A stretch of DNA of 31,645 bases from a virus (Duplodnaviria; Heunggongvirae; Uroviricota; Caudoviricetes), in IMG/VR virus record IMGVR_UViG_3300045988_013781; one strand, written 5' to 3'. Position numbers: made by a program. Below, one piece after another: positions 1-27,000 of this stretch (positions are counted from its first letter, which is position 1; every line of letters starts with the position of its first letter).

Positions 1-3000
1 CGGTGCCCCCACACAGCCCACCATAGAATAGGTGCGCTTTACACATAAAAAAACCGCTTATGCGGCATATGTGCCTCTGTAGTAATCCGGGAGACCAATC
101 CCGGCACTGGCAAAATCCAGTGCCCGATTACTATGGCACAAGAGGAGTGCGATGTAAATTTACCGCAAAGGTAATAATAGACACAGGTGGATATTAAAAT
201 CAACCATATTTGGTTAATGCGTGTAAAAGAGCCAGCAGCGAGAAATTGTGCCGCGACGTAAAATAACGAGCATCTGCTGGCTTACAACCAGCGATGTTTC
301 AAATTTGTCACTACTATCAACGTGCCATTCCACGGCGCAGAACTTTATGTTGTCAATCACAACGGCGAACCGTACACCCCAATGAAACCTATCGTTGAGG
401 GAATGGGTCTAGACTGGAAATCTCAACATAAGAAGATTTCTCAACGCTTCTCGAAGGGTATGGTGGAAATCACCATACCTTCTGCCGGTGGGGTGCAAGC
501 CATGATTTGTATGGCTTTACGAAAATGAAGCAGTGGTTTAAAACCTGCATTGTGAAAATCACAATGCAGCTTCCTGGGGATGAACAGCGCCGTGAGATTA
601 TTTGTTTGGCACTTCGCAAACTTGCAGGTTAGCTGCAAACCATCAGCCCAATGAATCCTATCGCTTGCATGTAGTCACCTATTTATTTTTTAGCTTTTCA
701 TCCATAGCAAATTTCGTTGCTAAACTTTCACCATCTGATTTAAGCCTTCCAATAAATTTCCGCTTACCGTCTTGAGAGGAATTTAAATAGTATATATTTG
801 ATTCAGCAATCTTTTGTATGTACGACTCGCATGACACAACCGAAGCTTTGGATATAGAATCAACACTTTCTCCTGTCTTAGCGTATTTTACGGCCTGCCC
901 TTTTATACATCCAAAATATTCCATTGTATGCTTTTTAGAATCCTCCAGTGTTTCCCCATTTTTAGGCTGAATCATTAACGGTGAGGTAGTATCTGCAAAA
1001 GATTTTACAACTAAAAGCATAAGAATAATCATTAATATAATTCTGTTCATATTACTTCCCTAGCATGAACTGCGATGGTGGAATCAGAAATTCGTTACCC
1101 TGCTCACGCTCAACACGGCGCTGATAACGCTCAAGAGAGCCAGGGTCAAGGGCATCTTGTATCCGGTTCAATATTAAACCATTCATCGCCGTACGAAGCC
1201 AGAACACGTTGAGGAATGGCGTATTGTCAAGTGCCGTGCGATACCAGTCACCCAAATCTGCATCCCCTCTCGTGGTCTGCTGGAGCAGCGTGATAATGCT
1301 GTCAGCGTTCGATGCTGCCGGCCCCATTAGCGACGTAACCGGCCCGGCCCCCATGCGGTTGACCTCGCCAAACATGAAGTCACCCAAGATGCCAAGACCG
1401 CCCCCCTGAGATGCGGCTGCGAGAAACGTCTTGGCATCTGCCGGGCGCGGTGTTTGCCCTTTCAGCATGAGTTTTGACTGCATGGAGATATAACCAAACA
1501 TAGTCGCCCAGACAAAGAGGTTTGCAGCACCAAGGAAAGCCCCCTTCCCGTTACGCAGCAGCGCATTCGTCAGCGATCCGGTTTTCGACTCACCAAGCCC
1601 AGCAGGAATATAACCACGCCCGAATACTTCGCGTCCTAGTACGTTCTGCATGAAGCTTGCAGTGAACGATTTGTACTGACCAGCGAATCGTATTGCTTCC
1701 CCAGCCACCGTTCCTGGCACCGTGCCCATCTTCATAAACGCCTGCGTGCGATCGCCAGGCTCTGACATGGCGATATTCAGGCGGTCAAGGATGTAGCCGC
1801 GCAACTGCCCTTCCAATTGATCGCGTGCGTCAGCGATAGCGCGCTGCGTTGGCTTGATCCCCTTACTCTCTACATAACCGGCAATCACTTCGTCAGGCAC
1901 GCCGCGGATGCCGCTGGTCGTCATGAACTTACGACCTTCGCTATCGGCCATGTCCATGTTGCGAAAAATTTCCCACTCACGTTCGCCAATACCGTGCAGA
2001 TCCAGCACGCGTCGCAGGTCTTCCGGTAGCCGCGCATGAGGCTGGTCAGCATTCTTTGCAAGCCAGTTGGTTATCATCATGGCGTTACTGTTGCGACCGC
2101 TCTCGGTCCAGAAGTTCATGAGGTTGTACTTAAAGAAAAGCTGCTGCGCGCGACCAAGTTTTCCATTCAGCGTGTCATCACCAGATATGCGCCGGATGAT
2201 TTCCTGCGTCATGGAGTCGGAATAAACTCCGATAGAGGAAAGGATCTCTTTCTGCTCCGCGCTGTTGTAACGCGTGAAGCGGCCTCTCATAGCACCAAGC
2301 AACGCCTGCATAAAATTCTGCCCTTGGTAGCGCATCTCGGTAGCGGCGATAGGCACGTCGTTAAACGATGAGATTACCGCGCCACCAAGCTGGCTCATAC
2401 GCAACCAGCCGCGTACAGCCGCCGACGCATTGGCCCAGCCTACGCTGCCAGGAATATTTAGCGAGCCGTCAACCTGCGGCATTACGGTACGGTTAATGCG
2501 ACGCACCTTCGTCATGTAGTCAGCCAACGCTGCCGGTCTTCCGGATTTGCTGATATCTTCAGCAATGGTGTCCGTCAGGTACTTAAACATGTTCTGTGGG
2601 TTAGTGCCCAATACGCGCATCATGCCCGTTGTGCGGGCAGCGCTGTTTAAGCCACCAAACAGCGCCTCTCGCAGGCTGCCGGTGCCGAATTGCTGGTTGT
2701 ACTCGTGCCACGAGATACCATCTTTGAAGTGCAAAATTCGCTCTTGGCTGGCGCGTTTAGCTGCGTTCGCCGATCCCTTAAAGCCATTCATCCAATCGGG
2801 CTTTTCAGATGTAAGATGCACGCCGGAAGCCAGCCCGTTATAAATGTTACGCATGAACTGCTCGCGGTCAGCCACGCCGTCAAAAGTGCGCTCATCAAGG
2901 CGCGGGAGAATAGCATTTCGCCATGCTTCATAACCTGCGGCGCGGATCTTCATGATGTCGTGTGACTGGCGCACTATATAGCCCGGCTCTTTGCGTATCC

Positions 3001-24000: not shown

Positions 24001-27000
24001 ATCTTTCGGGACCACCAGGATATAAACTTTTTTCCTTGCTGTACCGGTGAAACTCCGCCATCACATCGTCAATGGTGACGCCAAGAACCATCTTGCTGTC
24101 TTTACACCACTTGATGAATTGCCCTGGCGACGGCCAGAACGGAGACTCACTGGCGCGGGCGTGGCGCATACCAGCGTTAACCTGTTCCATTGTAGTGATC
24201 CCATTCTCCAGAAACGCAAGCATCCATTGCTTACGGAATTCATTAAGTTTGTTCTGCTCCCTTATGGTCGAAACGCTTGCGGGAAATGCAGCCTGTAACT
24301 GGACAAATAGTTCATTGAAAATTCTAGCGACCTGCTCCTTTTTGCCATTGCTGTCACGCCGCTCTTCATGCACAGCAACACCATGCTCACGTAAGCGATC
24401 GTACTCATTGAGAAGTTCTGGAGTTGATTTCATCCCACACCCCTTCTATCCAGTCAGTGTTATTCCAGTCAAGCTCATCGCTTTTCCCGGCGTTTTTTGA
24501 TTTTCCCCTGATATGATTTACGTGCCTGGCGAATTTTTGTTCCCACTGAACCTGCGTGAACACTTTGCCCTCAGCCATCCAGTAATCCCGGAATGCAGCA
24601 AGTTCAGCAGGTGTAAATTCCGGTTCCGGCAGGGCCGTTCCCCACAGCGCAGCACGCCGTCGAAAATCCGGCGACGGATGCCAGCCATCGGTCATCGGAA
24701 ATTTCCCGATGGGTTCACTCAGGCCATCCAGAAATTCAGGTTCAGCCACCTGCAACGGCATACCGTTCGCTTCACTGGTCGGAGCACCCTCGCGCACGTG
24801 CGCTATGTGTGGGGTTTTATATATATCTTCCTCTTCCTCTTCCTCTGGTAACTCCTTTTGTAACGCTGTTGGCGTTACTTTTTGCGTTACTCGTTTTCGA
24901 TGCTCTGCCACTCTTCTATTCGTAAGTGCACGTTTTTTCGATGATTCTCCATTGTGTCGCTCAAAGTTTGGAAGAATTAGTTTGCCGTCATGATAAGCAA
25001 GCCATCCGACGCTAATGAGGGCGTCAGCAAATCCTGTAATAAAAGCGAGTCTATCAAGTACTCCTTTTGTAACGCTGCCAGCGTTACCGTCTATTGTTTG
25101 CTGGTCAGCCCATGCCCATATACGAACCAGCTTTCCAAGAACAGCATCTGGATCAATACCCAGAATTTCTGCTATCTGAAAAATTTCAGGTTTATCAGGA
25201 GTGATAACTTCAACCTTAATCCAGCTGCTTGCCATAGGTTTCCCCTCTTGCACTCTTTAGTGCACAAGCAAATTCATTACGATGGCGGTTGGCGCTATTC
25301 ATTGCACATTCAACACATGTTCCGTTCAGAACATACCTTTCAGAGAGATGGCCGTGACGGCACCGCTTTCCTGTGAAATAGCGATTTAACCCGGCTTTTG
25401 CGGCCTCCATTCTGGTTACTATCTTCAATTTTTCCGCCTCTTTTTGTTATTGATATTGGCTATTTTGCACAATTGGAAAATTTGATCAACCAGATTTGGT
25501 TTTTTATTACCTTTGAGGTACGAATAGATATGAAAAGACCGCCGGGTGGCGGTCTACAGAGGGTTGTGGCTGGATATCATGAGTAGAAGAAGTATGCCAG
25601 TTCTGCTTTTGAGCGCAGCCATTGTCTTGATTTACAGGCTTTAAAAAGCCCATCCATCAATACCTTACCTGGCATTTTGCGCTTACCTGTTAAGTGAGTC
25701 TGGATATAGTGACTCGTCGTTCCGGCTTCCTGTGCGAAGGCTTCACGCTCATCCGGAGTAAGTGCAAGCCAGTGCTTTTTGAAATCGAAATGTCCGTTAT
25801 CGCTCATAGCTATTGCCTGATATTTATTTCAGATAATAAATATTCACCTATAAGGTAACAAAAATCAAGGATAGTTACCCATGAGGTGCATTTACCTGTT
25901 GGGTAATATTGCTTTAAATTGAATCATCTACTGATTCATATATGAGGCGATTTTCCAGAAAATGAAAAGTATCCAGGACGTCCGCAGGCAAAATCTCAAC
26001 GACTTGATCGACCGTGAATTCAATGGTGTTCAGACGCGGATGGCTGAAAAACTTGGAACTCAGGCAAATCTGGTAAACCGCTGGGCTCTTGGCAAGAAGG
26101 TTATCGGCGACCAGGTTGCACGAAAAATTGAAGCTGCCGCCAATAAACCCCGTAACTGGCTTGATATCGATCGCTCGCTTTCTCAGGAAGGTTTTCAGCC
26201 TGTCGGCCCAAGCGACATTGGCCAGCTGGCGGCTCACAACCTGGAACGCTGGATGAGCGAAAGCCGCGACCTTTCAACGCAGGGAAAACTTCACCGCGCA
26301 TCCGGCGTCGCCCAGGTAACAATCAGCCGCCTGTTAAACAATGAGGTCAGCGTTTCCATTTCCACCCTGGAGAATGTTGCATCCGCATTTGGGCGTCACG
26401 GATATGAATTACTGATTCACCCGCACGACCCAGCGACTATCAACTATGACCGCTCGCGCTACGCATTGTTACCTGAAACAGAGAAGGCAAAGATCGAAAG
26501 TTACATTGAATTTGTCATCAACCAGAACGAAAAAAACAAACAATAAAATCATATTTTTCAGTAAGTAAGCCGCCTTCTGGCGGCTTTTTTATTGCCTATA
26601 CTATTACCTAATAGGTAATTTTTTTAACTCATATCTATTGACATCAAACCAAATACGCATAATCATTACCTCAACGGTAACAGACCGAGGTAACAAGTTA
26701 TGCAGTGGAAAATCATCAACGGTTGGTACTGCGTTACTGCATGCGGATTCATGAGCTGGAAGTTCCGCATCTTACAGGAAGGCATCAAGTGGGCTTTCGT
26801 CAGCAAAGAAGCTCGCGATGTGGCCAACGATAACGAGATATGGGAGGGCTGATAATGAACGTTAATCAGCAGAAAAATCTTCAAAAAATCATGCTGGCAT
26901 TCGACAAGGACTACCGCCTGTCAGAACAGCTATATGACCGACAAGTTGAACTGATTGAGAGCATCCGACTTCATCAACTGTCCTCAACTTTCGACGTTGT

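What the first reader, a model, noticed from the sequence alone, without database searches (positions are those of the whole stretch)
160..26680. A 15-bp palindrome, TTACC-N5-GGTAA, marks essentially every promoter region of the prophage
Perfect copies sit at 160-174, 17198-17212, 20766-20780, 23543-23557, 23605-23619, 25892-25906, 26604-26618 and 26666-26680. Near-copies (1-2 mismatches) sit at 17815-17829, 25507-25521, 25844-25858 and 25875-25889. A pattern fixing 10 positions is expected about 0.03 times in 31.6 kb, so 8 perfect copies, all intergenic, cannot be chance. Three copies form an OR-like cluster between the Cro-like and repressor genes and two flank a PL-like promoter, as expected for the operator of the two-HTH repressor. 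Unusually, the same site also sits before the late operon, before the post-replication operon, before the antirepressor remnant, and at both promoters of the tRNA/membrane-protein insert. A lambdoid CI normally controls only OL and OR. I did not exhaustively scan coding sequence for further copies.
Basis: seen in the sequence. Interest (0 to 1): 0.8.

Follow-up and report, generated by a model that had tools for sequence, protein, structure and literature searches.

The report
Repressor operators across an ε15-like prophage
The repeated 15-bp palindrome is real and is almost certainly the binding site of the prophage's master repressor, placed on nearly every promoter; the same sites are already annotated in the related Salmonella phage ε15, so it is well supported but ordinary for this phage genus.

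Summary
There are 8 perfect TTACC-N5-GGTAA sites, 12 with at most one mismatch, against 0 and 0.5 in shuffles. All lie in the 6% of the window that is non-coding. The window is a Uetakevirus (ε15/phiV10-like) prophage, about 98% identical to phage ZX5. The RefSeq record of ε15 already annotates seven ATTACC-N5-GGTAAT sites as repressor-binding sites. They sit before terS, gp3, the tail fibre, PL (three sites) and the post-replication operon. The window's 194-aa Rep matches the crystallised SPC32H Rep over its full length (PDB 5D50) and is identical to the ZX5 repressor that blocks lytic growth. The motif, its positions and its spacings (62 bp and 17-18 bp) are conserved in 13 genomes from at least seven host genera. 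Repressors that share only Rep's N-terminal domain have related or altered palindromes around their own genes. Operators sit in a fixed register with promoters. Site 17198 is a genus-wide site, not part of an insert. Verdict: a real, functional operator network that is already known for this genus. Interest is low.

The parts
160..174 (.). Operator (perfect, ATTACCGCAAAGGTAAT) over the start of a leftward promoter
   Evidence: The site runs from the last base of the -10 into the first transcribed bases of the promoter with -35 TTGATT (203-198) and -10 TATTAT (179-174) on the - strand (sequence; the same geometry is seen in the second copy).
47..123 (-). IsrK-like Hfq-binding small RNA, first product of the operator-controlled leftward unit
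   Evidence: Rfam RF01394, 56.8 bits against a gathering score of 50. Fold z-score -3.8. Compensatory stem changes between the two copies.
1..28 (-). 5' part of a C4 antisense RNA gene, cut by the window edge; a BRO-N antirepressor gene follows outside the window
   Evidence: Mapped from the 99.5%-identical prophage of E. coli PF9285: C4 RF01695 at L019 11941-12028 and the BRO-N gene at 11200-11892.
17198..17212 (.). Operator (perfect), at a fixed 105 bp from the gp3 start codon; it overlaps the -10 of a conserved promoter pointing at tRNA-Arg
   Evidence: The operator and TTGAC (17169-17173, + strand) are invariant in 7 phages although the far flank cannot be aligned. TTGACA-N17-TACCTT reads towards tRNA-Arg.
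17535..17611 (+). tRNA-Arg(TCT), downstream of the promoter at 17169-17204
   Evidence: SPC32H has the same tRNA in the same relative orientation.
17815..17829 (.). Operator (1 mismatch) in the spacer and -10 of the accessory-gene promoter ATGACC-17-TATAAT (17804-17832)
   Evidence: The position is conserved in EC.W1-9 (perfect site) and Klebsiella BUCT711 (2 mismatches).
17858..18682 (+). Accessory gene: membrane plus coiled-coil protein, phrog_4780, low G+C
   Evidence: The family profile begins at residue 9 of the ORF, so ATG 17858 is the likely start.
20748..20780 (.). Two tandem operators, 18 bp centre to centre (20748-20762 with 1 mismatch; 20766-20780 perfect), immediately before terS, the start of the late operon
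   Evidence: On the - strand TGgTACTAT (20788-20780) abuts the first operator. The terS ATG follows 2 bp after the second. ε15 annotates the equivalent site as repressor-binding.
23543..23619 (-). Operator pair 62 bp apart (23605-23619 and 23543-23557) bracketing the promoter of the DUF1064 post-replication operon (-35 TTGATT 23585-23580, -10 TTTAAT 23562-23557)
   Evidence: The same 62-bp pair is present in all 13 genomes compared.
25507..25521 (.). Weaker operator (1 mismatch) between the terminator after the cro-like gene and the replication genes
   Evidence: 1-mismatch sites occupy the same position in ZX5, phiV10, Tyrion and BUCT711.
25577..25807 (-). Cro-like gene (76 aa), divergent from rep
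   Evidence: phrog_35, transcriptional repressor, E 9e-13. Homologue of ε15 gp39 by position.
25844..25906 (.). OR cluster: 25844-25858 (1 mismatch, inside the spacer of the predicted PR), 25875-25889 (2 mismatches) and 25892-25906 (perfect); centre spacings 31 and 17 bp
   Evidence: The same 17 + 30/31 bp architecture, at the same distances from the rep start codon, is found in ε15, SPC32H and Citrobacter prophages.
25962..26546 (+). Rep, the immunity repressor (194 aa): N-terminal HTH DNA-binding domain plus C-terminal HTH-fold, tetramerisation and Ant-binding domain
   Evidence: Full-length match to the SPC32H Rep structure 5D50, E 4e-42. 100% identical to the ZX5 and phiV10 repressor. ZX5 ORF21 overexpression abolishes lytic transcription.
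26604..26680 (+). Operator pair 62 bp apart (26604-26618 and 26666-26680) bracketing PL (-35 TTGACA 26638-26643, -10 AATCAT 26661-26666)
   Evidence: The operators, CTATTGAC and the -10 are the only conserved blocks across six diverged phages.

Best explanation
TTACC-N5-GGTAA (fully ATTACC-N5-GGTAAT) is the operator of Rep, the immunity repressor of this Uetakevirus (ε15/phiV10-type) prophage, encoded at 25962-26546. Two N-terminal helix-turn-helix domains of Rep read the two ATTACC half-sites. Rep acts as a tetramer with two DNA-binding pairs, so one tetramer can hold two operators. The two operators are either adjacent (17-18 bp apart, at OR and terS) or 62 bp apart, about six helical turns, on either side of a promoter (PL and the post-replication promoter). 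At most promoters the operator begins at the last base of the -10 hexamer. Bound Rep therefore covers the transcription start. In the lysogen one protein directly silences every lytic transcription unit: cro and replication, the leftward recombination/early operon, the post-replication operon, the terS late operon, the tRNA-Arg and accessory-gene units, and the IsrK/C4-BRO-N antirepressor unit. Induction does not rely on Rep cleavage, because Rep has no S24 peptidase domain. It relies on antirepressors, including a LexA-controlled small Ant seen in the near-identical PF9285 prophage. Shown here: the sites, their conservation, their register with promoters, Rep homology, and variation of the palindrome across repressors that share Rep's N-terminal domain. 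Inferred: physical binding, looping, and repression at each individual promoter.
For: (1) Statistics and location are given. (2) The ε15 RefSeq record annotates 7 'protein_bind: repressor, lysogeny' features whose sequences are ATTACC-N5-GGTAAT, at homologous positions. (3) Rep matches the SPC32H Rep structure 5D50 over residues 1-190. Papers citing Kim et al. 2016 state that this Rep binds palindromic sites as a tetramer, with DNA-binding pairs formed across dimers, and that it has a p53-like tetramerisation domain of a type linked to DNA looping in another repressor, Rco of pLS20. (4) The identical protein in ZX5 cuts endolysin and holin transcription by more than 99.9% when overexpressed. 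(5) The motif is the top palindrome in every Uetakevirus genome or prophage examined: 8-11 perfect copies in the seven complete or near-complete genomes and 5-9 in the six shorter prophage loci. Hosts include E. coli, Salmonella, Klebsiella, Enterobacter, Citrobacter, Erwinia, Superficieibacter and Scandinavium. The spacings recur: 62 bp 22 times, 17-18 bp 15 times. (6) The Rep N-domain helix NLVNRW is invariant although overall identity falls to 42%. (7) Repressors sharing only the N-domain have related or altered palindromes clustered around their own genes. PseuP_224 cI (S24 C-domain) has TTACC-N4-GGTAA four times. JBD68 has TAACC-N4-GGTAA. Turba has TAACC-N5-GGTTA. An Acinetobacter phage has TTAGT-N5-ACTAA. 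(8) Strong -35 hexamers peak sharply 28 nt before the first T of an operator and 34 nt after the upstream partner. Alignments show the operators, -35 and -10 as the only conserved islands. (9) A perfect LexA box precedes the small Ant homologue in the 99.5%-identical PF9285 prophage.
Against: No binding or expression data exist for this prophage, and the primary ε15 and SPC32H papers could not be read. What was demonstrated experimentally, as opposed to predicted, for the operators rests on secondary citations and on a database annotation. PRM could not be located convincingly by sequence. An operator inside the promoter of an accessory gene is unexpected if that gene is meant to be expressed in the lysogen. 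The cro-like protein may bind the same sites, so not every effect need be due to Rep. A 62-bp loop is tight and is inferred from spacing alone.
Confidence: 0.88

Rival explanations
1. The palindrome is mainly the target of the Cro-like protein (25577-25807), or is shared equally by Cro and Rep as in lambda. The dispersed copies would then serve to turn genes down during lytic growth rather than to maintain lysogeny.
For: A small divergent gene with a weak 'transcriptional repressor' profile match sits beside the OR cluster. In classical switches Cro and CI share operators (established knowledge of lambda, 434 and P22).
Against: The half-site tracks the Rep N-terminal domain in phages whose neighbouring genes differ. 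The ε15 record assigns the sites to the repressor. Rep alone, expressed from a plasmid, silences lytic genes in ZX5. Sharing is not excluded; it would add to the main explanation rather than replace it.
Confidence: 0.08
2. Only the OR and PL sites are working operators. The copies at terS, gp3, the accessory gene, the antirepressor unit and the post-replication promoter would be fortuitous, or relics spread by recombination, with no regulatory effect.
For: No expression data exist for these promoters in this prophage. Several dispersed copies carry mismatches (17815, 20748, 25507).
Against: Each dispersed site is kept at the same position and in the same register with -35 and -10 elements in genomes whose flanks have diverged or cannot be aligned. 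Chance gives 0.5 sites per window.
Confidence: 0.03
3. The motif is bound by a host factor, or by another phage regulator such as the gp49-like regulator at 20867-21205, and marks promoters for activation rather than repression.
For: The terS promoter lacks a -35 and may need an activator. A predicted transcriptional regulator (phrog_536) lies just upstream of it.
Against: The motif is absent from 50 kb of host DNA. It covers the -10 and start-site region, a repressing position. The same or related half-sites flank repressor genes in unrelated phages that share only Rep's N-domain.
Confidence: 0.01

Closest known systems
Repressor-binding sites of Salmonella phage ε15 (RefSeq NC_004775.2 annotation; Kropinski et al. 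2007, not readable here)
   Same: The motif is identical (ATTACC-N5-GGTAAT). The positions are the same (before terS, gp3, PL, the post-replication operon and the ant/tail-fibre region). The genus and genome plan are the same.
   Different: Rep here is only 42% identical overall, 53% in the N-domain. The record annotates 7 of ε15's 11 perfect sites; the two perfect OR copies, the lysis-cassette copy and the partner of the post-replication site are not annotated. This E. coli lineage adds operator-controlled IsrK/C4-BRO-N modules and an accessory-gene promoter that ε15 lacks.
Rep-Ant switch of Salmonella phage SPC32H (PDB 5D50, 5D4Z; Kim and Ryu 2013; Kim et al. 2016)
   Same: Rep is homologous over its full length. 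An 86-87 aa Ant homologue is about 85% identical by eye from the listed sequences. A LexA box precedes it in the near-identical PF9285 prophage. SPC32H has 10 perfect copies of the motif.
   Different: The ant gene lies outside this window. Tetramer binding and the Ant mechanism are taken from secondary citations, not tested here.
Phage P1 immunity: C1 repressor with many dispersed operators, plus the immI module (c4 antisense RNA, ant) under a C1 operator (established knowledge)
   Same: One repressor holds many scattered operons directly. An antirepressor gene is preceded by a C4-family antisense RNA and controlled by the main repressor's operator.
   Different: The P1 operator is an asymmetric 17-mer and C1 is a different protein; homology to C1 was not seen in the Pfam hits. 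Here the operator is a palindrome read by a tetramer, and the phage is an integrating podovirus.
Lambda CI with OL and OR
   Same: A three-site OR between divergent rep and cro-like genes, and operators on a leftward early promoter.
   Different: There is no S24 autocleavage domain. Operators also sit on late, post-replication and accessory promoters. Spacings are 17 and 62 bp. Induction is by antirepressor.
Mycobacteriophage L5 gp71 'stoperators' and the φC31 repressor sites (established knowledge)
   Same: A genome-wide spread of a single repressor site.
   Different: The L5 sites are asymmetric, largely within transcribed regions and orientation-dependent. Here all sites are palindromic and promoter-proximal.

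Membership tests
Uetakevirus (ε15/SPC32H-type) Rep-operator system | Repressor homologous to SPC32H/ε15 Rep over its full length (N-terminal HTH domain plus C-terminal tetramerisation and Ant-binding domain) | tested here: met
   phmmer against the PDB: 5D50 chain A, E 4e-42, residues 1-190. Alignment with ε15, SPC32H, Klebsiella and Enterobacter Reps.
Uetakevirus (ε15/SPC32H-type) Rep-operator system | Operator ATTACC-N5-GGTAAT as annotated in ε15 | tested here: met
   The motif is the same in the window and in the ε15 protein_bind features.
Uetakevirus (ε15/SPC32H-type) Rep-operator system | Operators at homologous positions (OR cluster, PL pair, terS, gp3, post-replication operon) in a Uetakevirus genome plan | tested here: met
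Uetakevirus (ε15/SPC32H-type) Rep-operator system | Small Ant antirepressor under LexA control | tested here: met
   This lies outside the window. In the 99.5%-identical PF9285 prophage an 85-aa Ant homologue is preceded by TACTGTATATTTATACAGT.
Uetakevirus (ε15/SPC32H-type) Rep-operator system | Physical binding of Rep to the sites and repression of each promoter | not testable with these tools
   Needs EMSA or footprinting, ChIP-seq and reporter assays.
Lambda-type CI/OL-OR immunity | LexA-like S24 autocleavage domain in the repressor | tested here: not met
   Pfam finds only HTH families in Rep, whereas the PseuP_224 cI control scores Peptidase_S24.
Lambda-type CI/OL-OR immunity | Operators confined to the two early promoters | tested here: not met
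   Sites occur at seven separate intergenic regions in the window.
P1-type immunity (C1 operator network plus immI) | Many dispersed operators of one repressor controlling separate operons | tested here: met
   This is a functional resemblance only.
P1-type immunity (C1 operator network plus immI) | C4-family antisense RNA upstream of an antirepressor gene, under the main repressor's operator | tested here: met
   Rfam isrK and C4 above gathering score, directly downstream of operators in the window, PF9285 and ZX5.
P1-type immunity (C1 operator network plus immI) | C1-family repressor protein and asymmetric 17-bp operator | tested here: not met
   The operator is a perfect palindrome. Rep's matches are HTH_3/HTH_26 and SPC32H Rep. 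No direct C1 comparison was run.

The most novel reading that the evidence does not exclude
Rep tetramers may clamp promoters in fixed 62-bp micro-loops. Because a dozen or more operators are spread over every transcription unit, operator specificity may be evolutionarily frozen. All Uetakeviruses, across at least seven host genera and with Rep identity down to 42%, would then form a single immunity group. Induction would be delegated to antirepressor modules: a LexA-controlled Ant, and Rep-controlled IsrK/C4-BRO-N cassettes. That would be P1-like immunity logic in an integrating podovirus, with no dedicated late-gene activator. Parts of this may already be in the primary papers, which could not be read.
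Probability: 0.3. Interest if true: 0.45.

Novelty: already known. Interest (0 to 1): 0.2.

Why it matters
It gives a complete operator map for a common E. coli prophage type; phiV10-type phages are used as O157 reporter phages. It shows that one repressor can shut down the whole genome directly. It predicts cross-immunity among ε15-like phages of different hosts. It also corrects annotations: an unannotated IsrK/C4 RNA module, and an ORF called across the tRNA-Arg gene on the opposite strand. It does not reveal a new kind of system.

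Tried and rejected
(1) I tried to read the primary papers (Kropinski 2007, PMC2698709; Kim and Ryu 2013, PMC3807360; Kim et al. 2016, PMC4983836). None is held. A full-text search for the motif string found nothing.

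(2) I expected ε15, whose Rep is 42% identical, to carry a different palindrome that would show covariation within the genus. It carries the same motif. Variation of the palindrome was found instead among more distant repressors that share only the N-domain.

(3) I considered that a fixed operator might be offset by co-diverging Rep C-domains and Ant proteins. This was rejected because Ant is much more conserved than Rep, about 85% identical by eye.

(4) The N-domain-only homologues in Paraburkholderia, Hydrogenovibrio and Thiomicrospira (L014-L018) show no recurrent palindrome and were uninformative.

(5) PRM could not be placed from sequence; several registers were tried by eye and none was convincing. 

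(6) The first promoter-phasing test is biased, because the operator supplies one base of the -10 outright and usually a second. It was replaced by a test using the -35 alone.

(7) ORF 17234-17497 has no counterpart in the annotations of relatives and was not treated as a real gene.

Full report
**Observation.** Allowing one mismatch gives 12 sites against 0.5 expected. The site at 25875-25889 has two mismatches. An unbiased count of all 5-Nx-5 palindromes puts TTACC-N5-GGTAA first in the window. Flanking bases extend the consensus to ATTACC-N5-GGTAAT. With a gene map curated from the ORF list and from relatives' annotations, 6.1% of the window is non-coding, and every one of the 13 sites lies wholly in it. 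Fifty kilobases of E. coli chromosome contain no copy with at most one mismatch.

**What the window is.** The window is not a lambdoid prophage. It is a member of the genus Uetakevirus (ε15/phiV10-like podoviruses), 97-98% identical to phages ZX5, TL-2011b and HEMP4 over the regulatory region. The virion and packaging genes are on the minus strand and the integrase is at the right edge. The 194-aa protein at 25962-26546 is 100% identical to the repressor of phiV10 and ZX5. Overexpression of that ZX5 protein reduces endolysin and holin transcripts by more than 99.9% and abolishes free phage (PMC9782041). It matches the crystallised Rep of Salmonella phage SPC32H over its full length (5D50, E 4e-42).

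**The motif is already annotated in ε15.** The RefSeq record of ε15 carries seven 'protein_bind, repressor, lysogeny' features. Their sequences are ATTACC-N5-GGTAAT. They lie before terS, before gp3, between ant and the tail-fibre gene, three times at PL, and before the post-replication operon. The phenomenon is therefore known for the type phage of the genus. The phiV10 and ZX5 records do not annotate it.

**Conservation.** The motif is the top palindrome in ZX5, ε15 and SPC32H. The seven complete or near-complete genomes (the window, ZX5, ε15, SPC32H, phiV10, Klebsiella BUCT711, Enterobacter Tyrion) have 8-11 perfect copies each. Six shorter prophage loci retrieved with a Rep alignment have 5-9 each. 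They come from Superficieibacter, Erwinia, Klebsiella, two Citrobacter species and Scandinavium. Distances between neighbouring sites recur: 62 bp 22 times (plus 61 or 63 bp three times), 17-18 bp 15 times, and 48, 30 and 76 bp several times each. PL and the post-replication promoter are each bracketed by a 62-bp pair in all 13 genomes. OR has three sites spaced 17 and 30-31 bp, at fixed distances from the rep start codon. terS has a tandem pair 18 bp apart. Alignments of diverged phages show the operators, a -35 (CTATTGAC at PL) and the -10 as the only conserved islands.

**Which protein reads it.** Rep identity between the window and ε15 is 42% overall and 53% in the N-terminal domain. The helix NLVNRW and neighbouring residues are invariant in all five Reps aligned. 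This accounts for the unchanged half-site. Repressors that share only this N-domain provide an independent test. Pseudomonas phage PseuP_224 cI has the N-domain (39% identical) fused to an S24 peptidase. It has TTACC-N4-GGTAA four times, directly up- and downstream of its gene. JBD68 has TAACC-N4-GGTAA. Turba has TAACC-N5-GGTTA upstream and downstream of its CI. An Acinetobacter phage has TTAGT-N5-ACTAA. The recognition helices differ between these proteins. The palindrome thus follows the N-domain family and differs between its members. Papers citing Kim et al. 2016 report that SPC32H Rep binds palindromic sites as a tetramer, with DNA-binding pairs formed across dimers. They also report a p53-like tetramerisation domain of a type linked to DNA looping in another repressor, Rco of pLS20.

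**Geometry and mechanism.** Strong -35 hexamers (at least 5 of 6, starting TT) around operators in six diverged genomes peak sharply 28 nt before the operator's first T. That corresponds to a 17-bp spacer and a -10 whose last base is that T. A second peak lies 34 nt after the upstream partner of a 62-bp pair. A smaller peak at -22 corresponds to the gp3-proximal promoter. In the window this register holds in four cases:
- PL: TTGACA-17-AATCAT, 26638-26666.
- The DUF1064 operon: TTGATT-17-TTTAAT, minus strand 23585-23557.
- terS: TGgTACTAT, minus strand 20788-20780.
- The antirepressor unit: TTGATT-18-TATTAT, minus strand 203-174.

The promoter-proximal operator therefore covers the region from the -10 into the transcribed sequence, and its partner is centred about 62 bp upstream. 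The inferred mechanism is occlusion of the start site by a Rep tetramer. The tetramer would also hold the second operator, either adjacent or across a six-turn loop. At the predicted PR the operator lies in the -35/-10 spacer. PRM could not be placed.

- *Site 160-174.* The prophage of E. coli PF9285, 99.5% identical over window 1-1100, shows a BRO-N antirepressor gene on the minus strand starting 109 bp left of the window. Rfam places an IsrK-like RNA at window 123-47 on the minus strand, above the gathering score. In PF9285 and ZX5 a C4 antisense RNA follows it and precedes the antirepressor gene. Site 160-174 therefore controls a leftward operator-IsrK-C4-BRO-N unit. This is an immI-like module like that of P1. 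IsrK function in Gifsy-1 is described in PMC4825925. The site does not primarily serve the P22-Ant remnant at 322-528.
- *Duplicate cassette.* PF9285 has a second, inverted copy of this cassette. It is 85% identical, with compensatory changes in the stems.
- *Site 17198.* This site is not part of an insert. It keeps a fixed 105-bp distance from the gp3 start codon in seven phages. It overlaps a conserved TTGACA-N17-TACCTT promoter that reads towards tRNA-Arg.
- *Site 17815.* This site does lie in the promoter of the accessory gene (17858-18682; a membrane plus coiled-coil protein, phrog_4780). The arrangement is kept in EC.W1-9 (perfect site) and Klebsiella BUCT711 (two mismatches).

**Induction.** Rep has no S24 domain. 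In PF9285 the 85-aa homologue of SPC32H Ant is preceded by a perfect LexA box and by a one-mismatch Rep operator. This agrees with the published SOS-LexA-Ant-Rep route, which is known here from secondary sources and my own recollection.

**Comparison and verdict.** The system belongs to the ε15/SPC32H Rep-operator family. Homology, motif, positions and Ant/LexA were each tested and met; binding is untested. It works like P1 immunity in having many dispersed operators and a C4-controlled antirepressor, but it is not a member of that family. It is unlike lambda CI in lacking autocleavage and in controlling late and accessory promoters directly. The finding is real and its mechanistic reading is right, but it is already known for this genus, so interest is low.

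Some details may not have been described before: the fixed 62-bp bracket and promoter register, the operator on the IsrK/C4 module and on the accessory-gene promoter, and the identity of the operator across host genera. I could not check this because the primary papers are not held.

Noticed in passing
window 1-203 (- strand); L019 8934-9218 and 11892-12174; L001 37509-37790: The operator-controlled promoter is followed by an IsrK-like RNA (Rfam RF01394), a C4 antisense RNA (RF01695) and then a BRO-N or Ash/Ant antirepressor gene. This is a P1 immI-like module. It is not annotated in the ZX5 or PF9285 records examined. The near-identical PF9285 prophage carries two inverted copies, 85% identical, with compensatory stem changes. 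The left edge of the window cuts the C4 gene.
   Followed up: partly
window 17541-17813 (- strand ORF) against tRNA-Arg 17535-17611 (+): The ORF annotated as phiV10p04 (ZX5 17139-17390) maps onto the tRNA-Arg gene on the opposite strand, so it is probably a mis-called gene. Rfam also finds the tRNA in ZX5, where it is not annotated.
   Followed up: partly
window 17108-17197 (- strand), upstream of gp3: A leader of about 90 nt is almost invariant across E. coli, Salmonella, Enterobacter and Klebsiella phages. It contains TGGTAATAAT, which resembles the terS element TGGTACTAT. This may be a shared extended -10 late promoter or an RNA element. ε15 annotates IHF and RNase III sites nearby.
   Followed up: no
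window 17858-18682 (+): A low-G+C (0.40) accessory gene encodes a membrane plus long coiled-coil protein (phrog_4780, function unknown; weak coiled-coil matches to defence-system proteins). It is transcribed against the late operon from a near-consensus promoter that contains a Rep operator. This is odd if it is a lysogen-expressed gene.
   Followed up: partly
window 20867-21205 (-): A predicted transcriptional regulator (phrog_536; ε15 gp49 / N15 gp46-like) is the last gene before the terS promoter, which lacks a -35. It is a candidate late activator.
   Followed up: no
whole window, coding regions: Copies with exactly two mismatches number 21 against about 8 expected from shuffles, and nearly all are inside genes. 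This is unexplained. It may be a codon or composition effect that dinucleotide shuffles do not capture.
   Followed up: no
just right of window end (about 31690); L001 31526-31540; L002 26882; L004 26870; L006 28568: Relatives carry a conserved one-mismatch operator (ATACC...GGTAA) 43 bp upstream of the integrase start codon. The window ends exactly at that codon, so this site falls outside it.
   Followed up: partly
L019 8606-8624 (PF9285 prophage, left of the window): A perfect LexA box, TACTGTATATTTATACAGT, lies 20 bp before the small Ant homologue. A one-mismatch Rep operator lies about 40 bp further upstream.
   Followed up: partly
window 322-528 (+): A fragment encoding only the N-terminal domain of a P22-type antirepressor (Pfam P22_AR_N; 97% identical to CUS-3 ant), annotated as a pseudogene in PF9285. 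It is a recombination scar next to the inverted BRO-N cassette.
   Followed up: partly
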